Virus record (IMG/VR): IMGVR_UViG_3300018430_000021
Coordinates: 192,001-256,000 of that record
DNA from: a virus
Taxonomy: Duplodnaviria > Caudoviricetes
DNA length: 64,000 nt
Strand: one strand, 5' to 3'
Positions within the stretch are counted from its first letter, which is position 1; each line of letters opens with the position of its first letter. This document shows positions 19,927 through 24,582 of this stretch, one piece after another. Below the pieces are notes generated by a model, which saw nothing but the letters and a program-made list of their open reading frames with translations, was not told the DNA's origin and did no database searches. A program made the position numbers and the translations under genes.

Positions 19927-20691
19927 TTAGCCAAATCTTTTACGGATTGCCGCTTTTTCTACTTTGGTCTGCTTGATACCAAGTTCTTCGCACTTTTCAG
20001 CATCGTTAATAATACGGTCGTAGATTTGACGAGGCGTAGCGTGCATATCCAAATCGTAATCCTTCGGGTGTGCTTCATAATACGGGATAACGAACTTTTC
20101 CACGAATTCTTTTTTATATAACTTATTAATTTCTTTTTTACGCTGATCAATGACCTTACATGCCTGTGCGCGGGTCATACGTTTTCCGTCGACCCACATT
20201 TCATCCATCGGGTCGTCGACATCCTGCATAAGATACTTTTGAACTTCTTTAAGAATCTTAGGACCGTAATTCAACAGATAGAAATAAGAAAAATAGAAAT
20301 GCTTGTCATAACCAAATTCTACGTTAGCACTCTGAGATTGTGCAACGTTTTCATAAGGAATACCAAGTGCAATAGGACATGATAAGGAAAAACGATAAGA
20401 CTTGTATTCATCGCTCGCCCATAGATGAATACAGGCATCACGCCATGAACCTGTATAACATTCGTTATAAAGAGAATTAGCCGTATGCCAGCCGTGTACT
20501 TTTTTAATTTTTGTTTCCGGTAAAAGCAGATAAGCTTCAGCGCCGATATTCTTGAAAGGACAGGCATCATCAAGATGACAATCGGCATATCGATAGTTGC
20601 TGAATTGCTCTTTATTACCATACCCATGTTTGAGAGGCATTATATCTTTAAAAGCTTCGTTGAGTCTTTCAAATGATTTAGTAAAATCCAT
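19927..20691 (-). CDS. hypothetical protein
   Basis: Long ORF downstream of promoter. Confidence 0.75.
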   Translation of the reverse strand: MDFTKSFERLNEAFKDIMPLKHGYGNKEQFSNYRYADCHLDDACPFKNIGAEAYLLLPETKIKKVHGWHTANSLYNECYTGSWRDACIHLWASDEYKSYRFSLSCPIALGIPYENVAQSQSANVEFGYDKHFYFSYFYLLNYGPKILKEVQKYLMQDVDDPMDEMWVDGKRMTRAQACKVIDQRKKEINKLYKKEFVEKFVIPYYEAHPKDYDLDMHATPRQIYDRIINDAEKCEELGIKQTKVEKAAIRKRFG

Positions 20692-20713
20692 TATGTTTTT
20701 CCTTTTTTATCAT

Positions 20714-20746
20714 AATATAAAAAAAAGAGTTGACTTTCGTCAACCC
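20714..20746 (-). promoter_or_regulatory. Early promoter overlapping a terminator hairpin
   Basis: GGGTTGAC-GAAA-GTCAACTC-T-tract-TATATT. Confidence 0.75.
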
Positions 20747-21699
20747 TATAATGTGTAAGTCTTTGCTGAGCCCTTGCCGGTAAAATATACCATACGGTGT
20801 CGCTTATAGGTATTACCGTCTTTACCTTTCCAGCTCGGAGGATAAATCAACTGTGCAAGAGAAATATCATTCTTACCCTTGTTTATACTATCCTTCATTA
20901 TCCACTTGTCCATAAAATATTCAGAAAAACGTCCTTTATTGAATTTGAGTTCGGCCAGGACTTCTTTCTTGTTTTTCTCGATAGCCTTGGCCAGATAGAA
21001 CAGACTTCCACCGGCCGCATATTCAAGATGCAACATTCCTTTGATAGTAGACTTGTCCATGTGTGAAAGAACTTCAGGATCTATCTGTTTCAGTTTCTTG
21101 ATATAATATCGCTTGATAGTTCGGTCAATGTCCTTAGCGGACGTCTCGTCAAGAATCCACTGCGACCAGACAGATTCCAAATCGGTACGCCCGATAGACC
21201 ACCTGATAATATCTTCGATAGTGCCTTTAAACCTTTCACCGCTGTTCTTGTTTACGATAACGATAGGCTTATCATACTTGATAACTTTCTGCATCATGAA
21301 AGCGGTATTGCCGCCGCCGAAATTAAGCCCGCTCGGATTACTTTTTCCGTCCATCTTGTTGTGATAGAAAGAATTGATATTTCCTTCCTTGATGCCGATG
21401 GAACCGTTATAGATTTCGCTTTCGAAGAAGTTATCGAAAACGTCCTGAGTAATCTTTGTCTGGCCGAGAAGACCTTCACGAGGACGTTCTTTCGTTTCCA
21501 TCATGATACTGTGTTTCTTTTCGGTTTCAGGTACGTAATGATACTTGTATTCGAGCATGCAGTAACAACCGAGGAACATTAGACCTGGTAAGATTTCCAT
21601 GACGAAAAACTTTACAACGGCCCAAGGCTTTCTCTTCAGCCAGTACCAAGTGTAAAGGATTGTACATACCAAAAATAATATTAAGAATGTTATAATCAT
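20746..21699 (-). CDS. membrane-anchored hypothetical protein
   Basis: Two N-terminal TM segments. Confidence 0.7.
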   Translation of the reverse strand: MIITFLILFLVCTILYTWYWLKRKPWAVVKFFVMEILPGLMFLGCYCMLEYKYHYVPETEKKHSIMMETKERPREGLLGQTKITQDVFDNFFESEIYNGSIGIKEGNINSFYHNKMDGKSNPSGLNFGGGNTAFMMQKVIKYDKPIVIVNKNSGERFKGTIEDIIRWSIGRTDLESVWSQWILDETSAKDIDRTIKRYYIKKLKQIDPEVLSHMDKSTIKGMLHLEYAAGGSLFYLAKAIEKNKKEVLAELKFNKGRFSEYFMDKWIMKDSINKGKNDISLAQLIYPPSWKGKDGNTYKRHRMVYFTGKGSAKTYTL

Positions 21700-21709
21700 T
21701 TCGGCCTAT

Positions 21710-21741
21710 AATATAGAAAAAGAGTTGACTTTTGTCAACCC
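21710..21741 (-). terminator. tRNA-array terminator doubling as early promoter
   Basis: GGGTTGAC-AAAA-GTCAACTC-TTTTT-C-TATATT immediately 3' of the last tRNA. Confidence 0.75.
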
Positions 21742-21747
21742 TTATAG

Positions 21748-21829
21748 CGGAAGATGAGTGACTCGAACACCCAAGCCATGACGGCGGCAACGTTCGAAAT
21801 TGCTGGCTTACCAATTAGCCTAATCTTCC
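21748..21829 (-). tRNA. tRNA-Ser(CGA)
   Basis: Cloverleaf GGAAGAT/ATCTTCC, loop TT-CGA-AC, long V-arm, G73. Confidence 0.93.
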
Positions 21830-21834
21830 ATTAG

Positions 21835-21926
21835 AAGAGGTGGTAGGATTCGAACCCACGGCCCGGGATGATTACCGGATCACTGGAGTTCAAATCCAGC
21901 GCCATAAACCGCTCGGCCACACCTCC
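21835..21926 (-). tRNA. tRNA-Ser(TGA)
   Basis: GGAGGTG/CACCTCT, loop TT-TGA-AC, long V-arm, U73. Confidence 0.92.
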
Positions 21927-21935
21927 GAAATTTAG

Positions 21936-22021
21936 CTGAGGATGAAAGACTCGAACTTTCAAGCAGATTACTCCACGGCGGCCTTCCAAGCCACTCCCTT
22001 ACCAATTAGGGTTAATCCTCA
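21936..22021 (-). tRNA. tRNA-Ser(GGA)
   Basis: TGAGGAT/ATCCTCA, loop TT-GGA-AG, long V-arm, G73. Confidence 0.92.
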
Positions 22022-22025
22022 AAAT

Positions 22026-22184
22026 GAATACATGCAATGTTTTATACTGACGAGACTCGAACTCGCTTCATACGAATTGTAATTGGCATTTGCAAGAGTA
22101 TCTACCAATAAACGTACCCTTTCCTGATACTTTCGGACGCACGTTCTCTCCTACCTTGATCCAATATAGAGCACGCACATATTC
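22026..22184 (-). ncRNA. tRNA-like structured RNA without a clear anticodon
   Basis: Outer stem GAATATGTGC/GCATGTATTC; acceptor-like TATATTG/CAGTATA stacked on T-arm GCGAG-TTCGAGT-CTCGT. Confidence 0.6.
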
Positions 22185-22188
22185 TTAG

Positions 22189-22265
22189 TCGGCAACATAG
22201 GACTTGAACCTACATGTAACCATTTACTCTTTCTACGCCTTATCAGAGCGAGGAGATAGATGCCG
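22189..22265 (-). tRNA. non-canonical tRNA-Ile(GAT), copy 1
   Basis: Acceptor CGGCATC/GTTGCCG, loop CT-GAT-AA, normal T-arm, no D-arm in the usual place. Confidence 0.75.
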
Positions 22266-22276
22266 ATAATATTTAG

Positions 22277-22353
22277 TCGGTATCATAGGAATTGAACCTA
22301 CATGCAACCAATTACCCTTTCGACGCCTTATCAGAGCGAGGGGATAGATACCG
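22277..22353 (-). tRNA. non-canonical tRNA-Ile(GAT), copy 2
   Basis: Acceptor CGGTATC/GATACCG, loop CT-GAT-AA, compensatory changes versus copy 1. Confidence 0.75.
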
Positions 22354-22420
22354 ATAGATATTGACATTTTTCAGTGATCCAGTTATTGGCTTAGATATGT
22401 CCAATGTCAATAATTTTTAG

Positions 22421-22494
22421 TCCCGGAGGTTGGGCTCGAACCAACGACCTTTTGATTATGATTCAAACGCTCTAACCAGCTGAGCTACTCCGGG
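22421..22494 (-). tRNA. tRNA-Met/Ile2(CAT)
   Basis: CCCGGAG/CTCCGGG, loop AT-CAT-AA, A73. Confidence 0.92.
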
Positions 22495-22498
22495 AAAA

Positions 22499-22558
22499 TA
22501 GCGAGAAGTATATATTACGGATTTAAAGTCCGTTTTTATATAGGAACTTCTTTTGCTA
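22499..22558 (-). ncRNA. mini-RNA carrying an anticodon-like arm with TTA (ochre)
   Basis: Rod ending in ACGGA-CTTTAAA-TCCGT; terminal helix shared with 22571-22655. Confidence 0.55.
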
Positions 22559-22570
22559 TTAAACTTTTTA

Positions 22571-22655
22571 TAGCGGGATGTAATCGCCATACGGCTTCGG
22601 ATTTGAACCGATAAGGCATGTGAGCCTATTACCAAAATAGGAACATCCTATGCTA
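22571..22655 (-). ncRNA. mini-RNA with D-like and T-like arms, no anticodon
   Basis: CCTATT-TTGGT-AATAGG and TCGG-TTCAAAT-CCGA hairpins inside the shared terminal helix. Confidence 0.55.
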
Positions 22656-22660
22656 TGTAG

Positions 22661-22750
22661 AGCTATCTGCAGGATTCGAACCTGCGACGGGGATTTTATC
22701 CACAGCGGAGTTGCAGTCCGCTACCTTCGACCGCTCGGTTACAAGACAGC
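22661..22750 (-). tRNA. tRNA-Cys(GCA) with long variable arm
   Basis: GCTGTCT/AGATAGC, loop CT-GCA-AC, U73. Confidence 0.88.
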
Positions 22751-22761
22751 TTAATTTTAAA

Positions 22762-22884
22762 TTCCACCGCGTGCTTTTACCGAAGAGCCCGCGAAAACTT
22801 CAGTGGCCTACCACCTTGTTGTTTCATACTAAACACGACCGCTGTTTTAAGGCCGCAGCCTTTTTCGCACAGCGTCACGGCGAA
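22762..22884 (-). ncRNA. GC-rich rod-like structured RNA
   Basis: Nested stems TTCGCCGTG/CGCGGTGGA, GCGAAAA/TTTTCGC, GGCCT/AGGCC, TGTTT/AAACA. Confidence 0.5.
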
Positions 22885-22893
22885 CTATTTTCG

Positions 22894-22980
22894 TGCTAGC
22901 TAAGGGAGTCGAACCCCTGTTGTTAACTCGTAAGAGACGTGATCTACAGTCACGCGCAATCGCCACTCTGCCAAACTAGC
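22894..22980 (-). tRNA. tRNA-Tyr(GTA)
   Basis: GCTAGTT/AGCTAGC, loop CT-GTA-GA, long V-arm, A73. Confidence 0.92.
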
Positions 22981-22987
22981 ATTTTAG

Positions 22988-23072
22988 TGACAGCGGTAGG
23001 ACTCGAACCTACGGAAGCTCGTTAGAGCGGGAGGGTTACAGCCTCCAGGAATTGCCGCTATCCGACACTGCC
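22988..23072 (-). tRNA. tRNA-Tyr(GTA)
   Basis: GGCAGTG/CGCTGTC, loop CT-GTA-AC, long V-arm, A73. Confidence 0.92.
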
Positions 23073-23151
23073 AAATATCGGGCTTTCACCGATTGCCCGA
23101 ACAAACGATCCTATACAACATACGTCTCAAGGGTCTGTTCGATCATATAAT

Positions 23152-23186
23152 AAAAAAATAAAAGCGTCACTTTTCGGTGACGCCTT
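23152..23186 (-). terminator. Attenuator terminator upstream of the tRNA array
   Basis: AAGGCGTCAC-CGAAAA-GTGACGCTTTTATTTTTTT. Confidence 0.88.
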
Positions 23187-23214
23187 GAAACTCTATAAAT
23201 GAGTATTCTTGGTG

Positions 23215-23310
23215 TCACCCACCAGTCTTAATAATATACATGCCATAGATTGAGGATGTGGAGCATCCGCAAATCGAAGAACATTAATATGTATATAACT
23301 GGTGAGTCAT
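23215..23310 (-). CDS. Leader peptide MTHQLYTY*CSSICGCSTSSIYGMYIIKTGG (in-frame TAA at codon 9)
   Basis: SD AAGGA; codons match the downstream tRNAs; final TGA lies inside the antiterminator strand. Confidence 0.75.
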
Positions 23311-23380
23311 TGCTTTTATCCTTTTAATATTATATATAAAAAATTTTTTGTGTTTTTTGCTTTTTGTTTTAACGTTGTTA

Positions 23381-23412
23381 AATATAGTAAATTGTGTTGT
23401 ACTTGTAAACCC
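23381..23412 (-). promoter_or_regulatory. Early promoter driving the leader and tRNA array
   Basis: GGG-TTTACA-N17-TATATT. Confidence 0.75.
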
Positions 23413-23415
23413 CTT

Positions 23416-23655
23416 TTAGAAAAAATTTTTTTCTTCCGAGTTTTTCCCTCTGATTCGGAACCACAAGAATACGACACTGCCAAGCATTATGACACCATGA
23501 ACCAGACATCCGGTGAAGTGTATTATCGACATGGAACCTTTGTGTGGACCTACAACTTCATAAAGATGTTGGTAGTTAAAAATAAACATACCGACATTGA
23601 ATATTATATAGGCCAATACGCCGAGCATCACATAAATCTTTTCTTCTTTCATCAC
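23416..23655 (-). CDS. small two-TM membrane protein
   Basis: Two hydrophobic segments. Confidence 0.6.
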   Translation of the reverse strand: MMKEEKIYVMLGVLAYIIFNVGMFIFNYQHLYEVVGPHKGSMSIIHFTGCLVHGVIMLGSVVFLWFRIRGKNSEEKNFF

Positions 23656-24461
23656 CAGCTCTCCTCATAGAGTAATACTTCGCACGGCATGCGATCTTCG
23701 TCTCGCCATTTCTTGAATCGTTCCAAGTATGTTTTGATACTGTCAAAATACCAGTAATCATAATGTAAATTACCGAAGAAAAATCCAGGACGTGACGGAA
23801 GATATTTCGCAGCTGCTTCGTTTTGATCTTGCGTAGCAGTCCAGTTGTTATGCCAGTCTACAGCTTCTGGAATATACCAACCTTCGTCGTTAGTTTCTGG
23901 TTTGTTGAATGTTTCTGCGAACGTCTTGAATTCGCCAGCGGCCATAATCTTTTCCATACGGTCGATAATGTCGTTGACATGCTGAAGAGTCAGAATCGCT
24001 AATCCGTCTTCAAGAATTTTGTTATCATAACCAGATTCAACATGCAGCCTTTCAGGAAACGAGTTATAGACATATTGAAGCATCCAGTTCTTTTTTCTCA
24101 TGTATAAAGGTTGATATTGACCTTCATAAGTAAAGCCAATTTCCTTTTTGAGAGACTCATAACGGTTTTCAACATATTCCCAGCCTGAAAGGTCAATGGG
24201 ATTCATGAAATCCTTAATGTCATAGTTAGGTTCGTTGGTACGGTCAAAGTCATAGTCGATACCTTGTTCATTTTTCTCTTCCATGATTTTACATTGTTCG
24301 TTATACCACTTGTTCCATTTCTTACTGGCTTTGTCAAGCGGCTCGCGATACTTTTCACCATAGGCGTTATAGGCAATATCATATTGCTTACTTGCATCGA
24401 GAAATTCTTCGGCTTTTTCTTTCGACGATACCCGATAAAAATAAATGTCTAAACCCATCAT
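23652..24461 (-). CDS. conserved phage protein (MGLDIY...GFFFG type)
   Basis: MGLDIYF N-terminus, LPSRPGFFFG...YDYWY, terminal YEESW. Confidence 0.7.
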   Translation of the reverse strand: MMGLDIYFYRVSSKEKAEEFLDASKQYDIAYNAYGEKYREPLDKASKKWNKWYNEQCKIMEEKNEQGIDYDFDRTNEPNYDIKDFMNPIDLSGWEYVENRYESLKKEIGFTYEGQYQPLYMRKKNWMLQYVYNSFPERLHVESGYDNKILEDGLAILTLQHVNDIIDRMEKIMAAGEFKTFAETFNKPETNDEGWYIPEAVDWHNNWTATQDQNEAAAKYLPSRPGFFFGNLHYDYWYFDSIKTYLERFKKWRDEDRMPCEVLLYEESW

Positions 24462-24582
24462 TCCTCCGATGGATATTCGTTTCTTATAGTTTCGAATTCG
24501 CGTTGTTGTTTTTCAACATCTACACGTTCGAACTTTACGCCTTCGCCTAATTCTTCTTTAGTTTCTTCGTCCATAAAACCTC

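What the first reader, a model, noticed from the sequence alone, without database searches (positions are those of the whole stretch)
22499..23286. In-frame UAA in the leader is matched by a UUA-anticodon mini-RNA in the array
Seen: leader codon 9 is TAA (23286-23284), yet the cognate-codon enrichment continues in the same frame after it. The array holds a 60-nt rod (22558-22499) capped by a well-formed anticodon arm, ACGGA-CT-TTA-AA-TCCGT (22533-22517), with C32/U33/A37/A38 and an anticodon complementary to UAA. The arm resembles tRNA-Tyr and tRNA-Pyl arms. Most phage genes here end in TAA, so there is no global recoding. Inference: the leader may also monitor UAA termination or read-through, or the RNA may be a decoy for anticodon nucleases. 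Alternatively the TAA is a recent nonsense change or sequencing error of TAC, TAT or TCA. A TAATG overlap also permits re-initiation (MFFDLRMLHILNLWHVYY).
Basis: partly seen in the sequence, partly recalled or inferred. Interest (0 to 1): 0.75.

Follow-up and report, generated by a model that had tools for sequence, protein, structure and literature searches.

The report
Matched stop codon and hairpin anticodon
In one strain of a giant gut phage, a stop codon arose inside the tiny sensor gene that controls a tRNA operon, and the anticodon-like loop of a small hairpin RNA in the same operon carries the exactly complementary change, which suggests that this non-tRNA hairpin reads that codon.

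Summary
Codon 9 of the leader ORF (23310-23215, minus strand) is TAA. Codons cognate to the operon's tRNAs continue in the same frame after it (15 of 22, P=5.5e-7). A 62-nt hairpin (22559-22498) is capped by a 5-bp stem and a CU-UUA-AA loop.

Relatives settle three points:
- All other leaders of this type are uninterrupted and have TCA at that codon, so TAA is a recent C-to-A change. It is not an assembly error, because the haplotype recurs in independent assemblies.
- The hairpin belongs to a large family of "clamped" tRNA-part RNAs in these phages' tRNA arrays. At this site relatives carry UGA or GCA loops.
- The two nearest strains, from two other studies, have TCA with UGA. In about 795 nt the window differs from both at only three positions: the codon's middle base, the loop's middle base, and a stem base that closes an A·C mismatch.

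This complementary double change on a near-zero branch argues that loop and codon interact, most simply in the ribosomal A site. Whether the hairpin causes a pause or true suppression is unknown. Coincidence remains possible, because this is one evolutionary event. Leader attenuators before tRNA arrays were noted earlier in this scan on other DNA. The matched stop/hairpin pair was not.

The parts
23381..23409 (-). Sigma-70-like promoter of the operon (TTTACA, 17 nt, TATATT). The same box, preceded by GGGG, stands before the other tRNA arrays of the genome.
   Evidence: 104+ matches to the extended box in related IMG/VR contigs
23311..23350 (-). Conserved A/T-rich box and AAAGG ribosome-binding site, shared by all array leaders
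   Evidence: repeated at four other places in the genome
23215..23310 (-). Leader ORF of 31 codons plus TGA. Its codons mirror the operon's tRNAs. It is interrupted at codon 9 in this strain only.
23284..23286 (-). In-frame TAA (codon 9). TCA in every relative. The middle base 23285 is the derived change.
23228..23284 (-). +1-frame ORF that starts at the ATG of TAATG, with 18 codons ending Tyr-Tyr-TAA. A possible termination-reinitiation path. It is also open in relatives.
   Evidence: (no cognate enrichment: 4/22)
23298..23307 (-). Attenuator region 1 (codons 2-5). It pairs with region 2 in the ribosome-free fold.
23211..23226 (-). Attenuator region 2 (last leader codons and the TGA). Its 5' part pairs with region 1. 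Its 3' part (23220-23211) pairs with the terminator's 5' arm and forms the antiterminator.
23152..23186 (-). Intrinsic terminator of the attenuator (10-pair stem, 6-nt loop, T-tract)
22987..23072 (-). tRNA-Tyr(GUA), first gene of the array
22893..22980 (-). tRNA-Tyr(GUA), second copy
22660..22750 (-). tRNA-Cys(GCA) with a long variable arm
22570..22656 (-). Clamped tRNA-like RNA 'X': a D-like hairpin and a T-arm-like hairpin with no anticodon arm. Its clamp stem covaries with that of the mini-RNA.
22498..22559 (-). The mini-RNA. The clamp has 5 bp, a 3x1 internal loop and 6 bp, followed by the conserved UCCUAU. It holds a bare anticodon-arm hairpin.
22517..22533 (-). Anticodon-arm mimic: 5-bp stem and loop CU-UUA-AA. 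Derived bases are 22525 (loop middle, G to U) and 22531 (stem, A to G, closing an A·C mismatch).
22420..22494 (-). tRNA-Met(CAU), 3 nt downstream of the mini-RNA
22189..22354 (-). Two tandem aberrant tRNA-Ile(GAU)-like genes, not called by ARAGORN or Rfam. Relatives have canonical tRNA-Ile(GAU) here. The leader has four Ile codons.
   Evidence: scan notes
21747..22021 (-). tRNA-Ser(GGA), tRNA-Ser(UGA) and tRNA-Ser(CGA). The canonical UGA tRNA is unchanged in this strain.
21720..21743 (-). Terminator at the end of the operon

Best explanation
Shown. The window comes from a roughly 415-kb phage of ruminant gut samples. Each of its tRNA arrays is preceded by a trpL-like leader-peptide attenuator whose codons match the array's tRNAs. 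In one widely sampled strain, leader codon 9 changed from TCA to TAA. On the same very short branch, a clamp-flanked anticodon-arm hairpin RNA gene 760 nt downstream in the operon changed its loop triplet from UGA to UUA and gained a G-C pair in its 5-bp stem.

Inferred. The hairpin's loop triplet pairs with leader codon 9 as anticodon with codon. The only setting that gives three-base specificity is the ribosomal A site. The codon and the hairpin are therefore a matched pair inside the attenuator, and this strain has switched the pair from UCA:UGA to UAA:UUA.

Favoured mode (inferred, about two to one over true suppression). The hairpin has no acceptor end, D arm or T arm, so it acts as a codon-specific A-site ligand, not as an amino-acid donor.
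- By competing with Ser-tRNA (ancestral state) or with release factor (this strain), it lengthens the ribosome's dwell at codon 9.
- Codon 9 is the last position at which the ribosome still covers attenuator region 1.
- A longer dwell there favours the antiterminator and read-through into the array.
- The switch to UAA:UUA frees the hairpin from competition with the co-transcribed canonical tRNA-Ser(UGA).
For: 1. The leader frame is real. 15 of 22 codons after the TAA are cognate (P=5.5e-7), and the other frames are not enriched. More than 12 distinct orthologous leaders are uninterrupted and covary with array content.

2. TAA is derived from TCA. Every relative has TCA before the Cys codon.

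3. Haplotypes.
- TAA with UUA: the window, X1, L157 and L158, which are 100% identical over 1961 nt in two further JGI samples.
- TCA with UGA: X10, X15 and L156.
- TCA with GCA: L154 and L159.
- No mixed haplotype was seen.

4. Timing. X10 and X15 come from two other studies. Over about 795 nt the window differs from both at only 23285, 22525 and 22531. If three changes fell at random, the chance that all three hit codon 9 plus the 17-nt arm is 1.6e-5.

5. The stem change stabilises the hairpin from -8.5 to -14.7 kcal/mol. That fits selection on a weak all-A/U triplet.

6. The arm is a conserved structure. Three of five stem pairs change on both sides among eight homologues. U33 and A36-A38 are invariant, and only positions 34 and 35 vary.

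7. Attenuator folds. The free RNA forms 1:2 plus the terminator (-47.8 against -44.9 kcal/mol). A ribosome between codons 6 and 27 lets the antiterminator form. A ribosome at codon 28 or later masks it.

8. From established knowledge: isolated anticodon stem-loops bind the 30S A site in a codon-dependent way.
Against: - This is one evolutionary event. The strains are known from contigs only, which hide minority variants.
- The loop triplet changes often at this site. UGA, GCA and UUA occur among lineages about 7% apart. A change in the hairpin alone is therefore not rare.
- In Asp arrays, the presence of a GCA hairpin does not correlate with a Cys codon in that array's leader: the four combinations occur 2/2/2/2. 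A general rule that a leader senses its own hairpin is not supported.
- Arrays without such a hairpin still have TCA at codon 8 or 9 (L155, L037).
- No discrete RNA, ribosome binding or read-through has been shown.
- UAA followed by U is a strong termination context in E. coli (knowledge), so release factor would be a strong competitor.
- A UUA ligand would also meet the 72% of genes that end in TAA.
Confidence: 0.5

Rival explanations
1. Coincidence. TAA is an unrelated young nonsense change that simply alters the attenuator. The outcome could be early release giving super-attenuation, or termination-reinitiation at TAATG into the +1 ORF, whose stop leaves the antiterminator free. Independently, the hairpin's positions 34 and 35 diversify for another function, for example as a decoy or sponge for anticodon-loop-binding enzymes such as host anticodon nucleases or MiaA. 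All variants keep A36-A37-A38.
For: - The hairpin triplet differs among close lineages while the leader stays the same (UGA in L156, GCA in L154 and L159).
- GCA hairpins occur in arrays whose leader has no Cys codon.
- The clamp family also holds cargo that cannot decode at all, such as tetraloop-sealed tRNA bodies.
- Young deleterious changes are expected on terminal branches.
- The first match was found by looking for one.
Against: - The three positions that separate this strain from both nearest strains are exactly the codon, its complementary loop base and a stem-closing base (P about 1e-5 for placement alone).
- No nonsense codon occurs in any of about 25 other leaders examined.
- The haplotype is common, not a rare defective variant: 24 contigs read in 69 index blocks carry the identical flanking protein, and nine runs hold 99% of the words.
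- No natural tRNA has a UUA anticodon that a decoy could imitate.
Confidence: 0.25
2. The hairpin is a true, aminoacylated minimal suppressor tRNA. The clamp would serve as the acceptor helix after processing and CCA addition. The hairpin would insert an amino acid, probably Ser, at UAA, so the full leader is still translated and still senses Tyr, Cys, Ser, Ile and Met.
For: - The change is the classic compensatory pattern: a Ser codon becomes ochre together with UGA becoming UUA, in a system where SerRS ignores the anticodon (knowledge: supD, T4 psu1).
- The downstream regulatory codons are intact.
- Sister modules in the family look like T-armless tRNAs, with a D arm, an anticodon arm and a short loop. 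Their anticodons (GGU, GUU, GAU, GCU) match the amino acids of their arrays.
- U33, A37 and A38 are conserved.
Against: - There is no single-stranded 3' end, no encoded CCA and no T arm.
- No EF-Tu homologue is present in the window's genome or in two complete relatives, and no CCA-adding enzyme is present in the window's genome. Armless mitochondrial tRNAs need an adapted EF-Tu (PMC12221289).
- Hairpin length varies from 54 to 63 nt among homologues. That fits poorly with a fixed distance from anticodon to acceptor end.
- An efficient ochre suppressor would extend most proteins.
- No excess of in-frame TAA was found in coding regions.
- The lineage is too young for decay of the downstream codons to be informative.
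Confidence: 0.15
3. Ribosome-free RNA-RNA recognition. The hairpin loop would pair directly with the leader RNA around codon 9, like the specifier-anticodon contact of a T-box, and bias the terminator/antiterminator choice.
For: Codon-anticodon contact without a ribosome exists in T-box leaders (knowledge). Loop and leader can form 4 bp, the triplet plus A37 with the preceding U, in both haplotypes.
Against: - Rfam finds no T-box or other known leader RNA here.
- Only 4 bp are available.
- In the predicted free fold the codon is not displayed in a loop.
- The leader is clearly a translated ORF.
Confidence: 0.05

Closest known systems
Nonsense suppressor tRNAs made by an anticodon change in tRNA-Ser(UGA) or other tRNAs (E. 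coli supD/supC; phage T4 psu1) - from general knowledge
   Same: A stop codon is paired with a complementary one-base anticodon change in an RNA encoded by the same genome. The ancestral pair is a Ser codon with UGA.
   Different: Here the changed RNA is not a tRNA. It has no acceptor end, D arm or T arm, and it is not found by ARAGORN or Rfam. The canonical tRNA-Ser(UGA) of the operon is unchanged. The pair occurs in nature and in a regulatory leader, not in a protein gene.
Suppressor tRNAs of stop-codon-recoded phages (TAG or TGA reassigned) - from general knowledge
   Same: A phage-encoded RNA with an anticodon complementary to a stop codon.
   Different: There is no genome-wide recoding: TAA ends 72% of long ORFs. 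One single in-frame stop was seen. No canonical suppressor was found among the 42 tRNAs of the 291-kb record.
Armless, hairpin-like mitochondrial tRNAs of Romanomermis culicivorax (PMC6158502, PMC12221289)
   Same: A rod-shaped RNA with a normal anticodon arm and no D or T arm.
   Different: Those have a free acceptor end with CCA and work with a co-evolved EF-Tu. Here the ends are locked in a conserved clamp that also holds non-decoding cargo, and no EF-Tu gene is present.
Leader-peptide transcription attenuators (trpL, hisL, pheL; PMC1183508, PMC3082878) and the tRNA-array versions noted earlier in this scan
   Same: A short ORF of regulatory codons, 1:2 / 2:3 / 3:4 alternative pairings and an intrinsic terminator.
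   Different: The operon encodes tRNAs, not enzymes. No described attenuator contains an in-frame stop matched to an RNA of its own operon.
In-frame or terminal stop codons used as sensors: prfB +1 frameshift at UGA (PMC5009743) and TnaC stalling at its stop codon (knowledge)
   Same: Ribosome behaviour at a stop codon inside or at the end of a short regulatory ORF sets downstream expression.
   Different: Those sense release factor 2 or tryptophan. No RNA ligand complementary to the stop codon is involved.
Isolated anticodon stem-loops and tRNA fragments that bind the small ribosomal subunit (in vitro ASL analogues; Haloferax Val-tRF) - from general knowledge
   Same: A short RNA with an anticodon arm that can occupy a ribosomal site without carrying an amino acid.
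   Different: None is known to be genetically encoded as such in an operon, or to covary with a specific codon.

Membership tests
Canonical tRNA / nonsense-suppressor tRNA | Cloverleaf with D arm and T arm, recognised by tRNA models | tested here: not met
   ARAGORN and Rfam RF00005 at E up to 10 find nothing at 22498-22559. The fold is a single rod.
Canonical tRNA / nonsense-suppressor tRNA | 5-bp anticodon stem and 7-nt loop with U33 and purine 37 | tested here: met
   The arm lies at 22533-22517 with loop C-U-UUA-A-A. U33 and A36-A38 are invariant in eight homologues, and the stem covaries.
Canonical tRNA / nonsense-suppressor tRNA | Acceptor stem with free 3' NCCA end; aminoacylation | tested here: inconclusive
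   No CCA is encoded. The 5' and 3' ends pair in the clamp, and 4 nt separate it from tRNA-Met. Processing and charging cannot be tested with these tools.
Armless mitochondrial-type tRNA | Dedicated EF-Tu able to bind arm-less tRNAs | tested here: not met
   PF00009 is absent from the window's genome and from two complete relatives of 416 and 424 kb. Controls were positive in 14 of 14 genomes.
Armless mitochondrial-type tRNA | Acceptor and anticodon stems joined by two short bulges, fixed small size | tested here: inconclusive
   The rod has an extra helix, and its length varies from 54 to 63 nt among homologues. ARAGORN in mitochondrial mode gave inconsistent calls, some on the wrong strand.
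Leader-peptide transcription attenuator (the leader that contains the TAA) | Short translated ORF enriched in regulatory codons cognate to the operon's products | tested here: met
   Leader composition tracks array content across relatives. Examples: Gln codons occur with tRNA-Gln, and Cys codons move with tRNA-Cys.
Leader-peptide transcription attenuator (the leader that contains the TAA) | Intrinsic terminator plus mutually exclusive antiterminator and anti-antiterminator pairings | tested here: met
   Terminator. Constrained folds, in silico only.
Leader-peptide transcription attenuator (the leader that contains the TAA) | Uninterrupted reading frame up to the region-2 stop | tested here: not met
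   TAA stands at codon 9 in this strain. The feature is met in every relative.
T-box riboswitch | Stem I specifier loop and conserved T-box antiterminator sequence | tested here: not met
   No T-box hit in the Rfam E-value search of 20500-24500.
Y RNA / YrlA (tRNA-like module on a protein-binding stem) | Match to RF02553 and a Ro/TROVE partner protein | tested here: not met
   The only YrlA hit scores 19.3 bits against a threshold of 69, and it lies elsewhere, at 21996-22089. PF05731 is absent from three genomes.

The most novel reading that the evidence does not exclude
The clamp-flanked hairpin is a working, rod-shaped minimal decoder on a bacterial ribosome. It would be a natural ochre suppressor with neither D arm nor T arm, created in the wild from a UCA-reading form by one anticodon change, and co-selected with a UCA-to-UAA change in the leader that gauges it. 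By extension, the phage's T-armless clamped modules would also be functional miniature tRNAs.
Probability: 0.15. Interest if true: 0.95.

Novelty: categorically new. Interest (0 to 1): 0.8.

Why it matters
If the link is functional, a genetically encoded bare anticodon arm recognises a specific codon in a regulatory leader. That would be a new class of trans-acting, codon-specific regulator, or at the extreme a new minimal adaptor. It would also show that phage tRNA operons gauge more than charged tRNA.

The natural pair of haplotypes, UCA:UGA and UAA:UUA, is a ready-made 2x2 experiment. It makes the question directly testable with synthetic RNAs in a purified translation system.

The work also exposes a large, undescribed family of clamped tRNA-part RNAs in giant gut phages. 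The family includes bare anticodon arms, T-armless forms and anticodon-sealed bodies. Its purpose is unknown, and standard tRNA finders miss it.

Tried and rejected
- An exact scan of IMG/VR for the 17-nt arm gave six hits, all chance matches in coding DNA with no tRNAs nearby.
- The 269-aa flanking protein found one 33%-identical relative, which has no array.
- A degenerate scan of IMG/VR for the simple-type hairpin found nothing.
- Rfam found no family for the hairpin, for X or for the leader.
- ARAGORN in mitochondrial mode gave inconsistent calls and called neither bare-arm hairpin in the sense orientation.
- No EF-Tu, CCA-adding enzyme or TROVE gene was found.
- I looked for an excess of coding-like sequence continuing in frame after TAA stops. 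TAA gave 18 of 197, TAG 3 of 37 and TGA 2 of 38, so there is no excess.
- I tested the rule 'a GCA hairpin implies a Cys codon in its own leader' in nine Asp arrays. There was no correlation.
- Run X14 shows TAA, but no contig covers the hairpin loop, so it says nothing about the loop.
- The RNA-library run X15 holds a contig across leader, terminator and array. DNA carry-over cannot be excluded, so I do not count it as proof of transcription.
- Searching tRNAs in the 411-kb record of the TAA strain was not possible because the record is not held. A canonical UUA tRNA in the missing 30% of the genome is therefore not excluded.
- Four literature searches found no paper on leader-controlled phage tRNA operons, encoded anticodon-arm RNAs or armless tRNAs in phages.
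- I considered and dropped several readings of the clamp:
  - Intrinsic terminator: no conserved T-tract.
  - Kink-turn: no tandem G·A.
  - Retron, attC-like site or MITE: the stem covaries between paralogues, and the clamp lies inside tRNA transcripts.
Full report
**Context**

The window is bases 192001-256000 of a 291-kb IMG/VR virus record estimated 70% complete. Complete relatives are 416 and 424 kb with terminal repeats. Runs that hold the sequence are gut, feces and rumen samples of ruminants.

The genome carries at least 42 tRNA genes in several minus-strand arrays. At least three arrays share one layout:
- a common promoter box
- a conserved A/T-rich box with AAAGG
- a short ORF
- a hairpin with a T-tract
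- then the tRNAs

Each ORF is built from the codons that its own array reads. The Ser codons are all UCN before the Ser(UCN) array and all AGY before the array with Ser(GCU). Across relatives the leaders change with the arrays. Gln codons appear with tRNA-Gln, and Cys codons leave this leader and enter the Leu-array leader when tRNA-Cys moves there. Other notes of this scan describe such attenuators on this genome and on other DNA. They form the frame of the present finding and are not repeated here.

**The observation**

The leader ORF runs 23310-23215 on the minus strand. Codon 9 (23286-23284) is TAA. The 22 codons after it include 15 that are cognate to the array (Tyr, Cys, Met, Ile, Ser-UCN), against a background of 18.8% (P=5.5e-7). 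The other frames have 3 and 4 of 22.

The hairpin spans 22559-22498 and folds as one rod. Its tip (22533-22517) is a 5-bp stem with loop C-U-UUA-A-A. No tRNA finder or Rfam model calls it. TAA is the usual stop in this genome, ending 197 of 272 long ORFs. The description is therefore correct.

**What the hairpin is**

Scans of IMG/VR and of metagenomes were seeded with the promoter box and with a conserved part of the first tRNA-Tyr. They brought in dozens of related arrays. The hairpin is one member of a large family that I call clamped modules. The clamp has these parts:
- an outer helix ending in G-C/C-G
- a 3x1 internal loop (A-N-A opposite C)
- a 6-bp helix always ending G-U/A-C
- the invariant single strand UCCUAU

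The cargo lies inside the clamp. The clamp helices differ between paralogues by complementary changes.

Cargo classes:
- (a) bare anticodon arms with loops CU-GCA-AA, CU-UGA-AA and, only here, CU-UUA-AA
- (b) a D arm plus an anticodon arm plus a short loop, which is a T-armless tRNA shape, with anticodons GGU, GUU, GAU, GCU or UGA that mostly fit the array they sit in
- (c) complete tRNA bodies with encoded CCA whose anticodon loop is replaced by a GCAA tetraloop
- (d) a T-arm plus a UUCG-type hairpin
- (e) others

Among eight bare-arm homologues the apical stem keeps pairing, with changes on both sides at three of five pairs. U33 and A36-A38 never vary. Only positions 34 and 35 vary. The element 22656-22570 just upstream ('X') is another member.

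**What relatives have at the two sites**

Every other leader of this array type is an open frame with TCA where this strain has TAA. The closest leader type begins with the same four residues. For that type the haplotypes are:

| Leader codon 9 | Hairpin loop | Where seen |
|---|---|---|
| TCA | UGA | L156 (ENA contig); runs X10 and X15 |
| TCA | GCA | L154; L159 (a 422-kb ENA scaffold) |
| TAA | UUA | the window; run X1; two further JGI assemblies |
| TAA | not covered | run X14 |

The two JGI assemblies with TAA and UUA are 100% identical over 1961 nt. The identical flanking protein is on 24 contigs read, in 69 index blocks. TAA is therefore neither an assembly error nor a rare defective variant.

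**The key result**

X10 (a 2024 gut metagenome) and X15 (a 2019 RNA library) come from studies other than the source. Over the roughly 795 nt that both cover, the window differs from both at exactly three positions:
- 23285, the middle base of codon 9 (C to A on the coding strand)
- 22525, the middle base of the loop triplet (G to U)
- 22531, a stem base (A to G) that turns an A·C mismatch into G-C

All other differences are private to X10 or to X15. L156 agrees with X10 and X15 at the three sites, so the three changes are derived in this strain. The two triplet changes are exact complements. The stem change lowers the hairpin's free energy from -8.5 to -14.7 kcal/mol.

If three substitutions fell at random in 795 nt, the chance that all land in codon 9 plus the 17-nt arm is 1.6e-5. 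A more cautious estimate allows that the hairpin triplet changes often and that nonsense changes are expected to be young. Even then the joint timing is unlikely at roughly the 0.003-0.05 level. This estimate is my own reasoning, not a tool result.

**How the attenuator would respond**

Constrained folding gives a trpL-like scheme:
- In free RNA, codons 2-5 (23307-23298) pair with the last leader codons (23226-23217) and the terminator forms (-47.8 against -44.9 kcal/mol for the antiterminator form).
- With a ribosome anywhere between codons 6 and 27, the stretch 23220-23211 is free to pair with the terminator's 5' arm before the 3' arm is made.
- With a ribosome at codon 28 or at the TGA, that stretch is covered and the terminator forms.

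Codon 9 is about the last A-site position at which the ribosome still covers region 1. From this I infer three consequences:
- Rapid release at a TAA there should give termination of transcription.
- A long dwell there should give read-through.
- Re-initiation at the overlapping ATG would carry a ribosome in the +1 frame to a TAA at 23230-23228, where the antiterminator strand is left free.

**Interpretation**

The simplest cause of a complementary codon/loop change is that the loop reads the codon. Three-base specificity is what the ribosomal decoding site provides. I therefore take the hairpin to be a codon-specific A-site ligand tied to leader codon 9.

A productive suppressor is the more dramatic reading. 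Points in its favour:
- the classic ochre-from-Ser genetics
- the T-armless sister modules

Points against it:
- the lack of any free acceptor end
- the variable rod length (54-63 nt)
- the fact that the same clamp holds cargo that cannot decode
- the absence of an EF-Tu gene in three genomes
- the cost of suppressing the main stop codon

Points against any functional link:
- this is a single event
- the hairpin triplet is labile among close lineages while the leader is constant
- GCA hairpins in Asp arrays show no association with a Cys codon in their own leader, although a diffusible RNA could act on another leader

I put a functional codon-anticodon link read on the ribosome (pause or suppression) at about 0.5-0.65. 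I put coincidence at about 0.25.

**Comparison with what is known**

The leader meets the tested features of a leader-peptide attenuator except for the open frame. The hairpin fails the tests for a tRNA, an armless mitochondrial-type tRNA system, a T-box and a Y RNA (see the membership table).

Four literature searches found no description of leader-controlled phage tRNA operons, of encoded bare anticodon arms or of arm-less tRNAs in phages. The closest analogies are laboratory suppressor genetics (supD, T4 psu1), stop-codon sensors (prfB, TnaC) and in-vitro anticodon stem-loop analogues. None of these combines an encoded non-tRNA anticodon arm with a matched codon in its own operon's leader.

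Noticed in passing
window 22570-22656 and 22498-22559; own genome 272741, 278731, 278486, 286884, 289143 (outside the window); many loci (L035, L039, L042, L051, L068, L073, L085, L098 ...): A large, apparently undescribed family of 'clamped' RNAs in the tRNA arrays. The clamp has two covarying helices around an A-N-A/C internal loop and an invariant GUUCCUAU. It holds very different cargo: bare anticodon arms, T-armless tRNA shapes, tetraloop-sealed tRNA bodies with CCA, and T-arm-only pieces. No Rfam family matches.
   Followed up: partly
window 22189-22354 (-): Two tandem tRNA-Ile(GAU)-like genes with a normal acceptor and T arm but no D arm in the usual place. A D-loop-like motif lies 3' of the anticodon arm. 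ARAGORN and Rfam miss them. Relatives L156 and L107 have canonical tRNA-Ile(GAU) at the same site. Other readers of this scan also noted this.
   Followed up: partly
window 22660-22750 (-): tRNA-Cys(GCA) of 91 nt with a long variable arm, a type-II shape that is unusual for Cys. It is conserved in relatives at 88-91 nt. G004 has a 74-nt form instead.
   Followed up: no
window 23073-23150 and 22751-22892 (-): Two further conserved non-tRNA stretches inside the operon. One lies between the attenuator terminator and the first tRNA-Tyr, the other between the second tRNA-Tyr and tRNA-Cys. Both are recognisably conserved in G002, G003, L107, L154 and L156. Their function is unknown.
   Followed up: no
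window 22022-22188 (-): A stretch of about 165 nt between the Ile-like genes and tRNA-Ser(GGA) has a T-arm-like hairpin near 22050-22070. Rfam gives only a weak hit to the 3' end of tmRNA. It may be another tRNA-like RNA.
   Followed up: no
L133:830-1360 and L156 (about 260-730 nt downstream of the second tRNA-Tyr): Relatives carry small AT-rich ORFs inserted between tRNA genes of this array. One has a CxxC...HH...CxxC motif typical of HNH homing endonucleases. The window's own genome has such an ORF between its two tRNA-Asp genes (about 271520-272340).
   Followed up: no
own genome 272656-272729 (outside the window); L098, L067, L135:265-380: A tRNA-shaped gene with encoded CCA whose anticodon loop is a GCAA tetraloop. 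It is enclosed in a clamp and placed between the promoter and the leader of the Asp/Lys/Gly array.
   Followed up: no
own genome 277468-277540; L085, L110, L155: ARAGORN reports tRNA-like genes with 2-base or 4-base 'anticodons' (ga, ca, aa, aaaa) inside the Glu/Ala/Phe arrays. This suggests 6- or 8-nt anticodon loops.
   Followed up: no
window 23311-23350 and the equivalent place before every leader: The box of A-run, T-run and TATATATAATA directly before the leader RBS is as conserved as the sigma-70-like promoter 60 nt upstream. It could be a second, phage-specific promoter.
   Followed up: no
L037, L064 (Leu-array leaders) compared with L035, L044 (Tyr-array leaders): Where tRNA-Cys sits in the Trp/Leu array instead of the Tyr array, the Leu leader gains two Cys codons and the Tyr leader has none. 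This is a clean example of leader and array covarying.
   Followed up: partly
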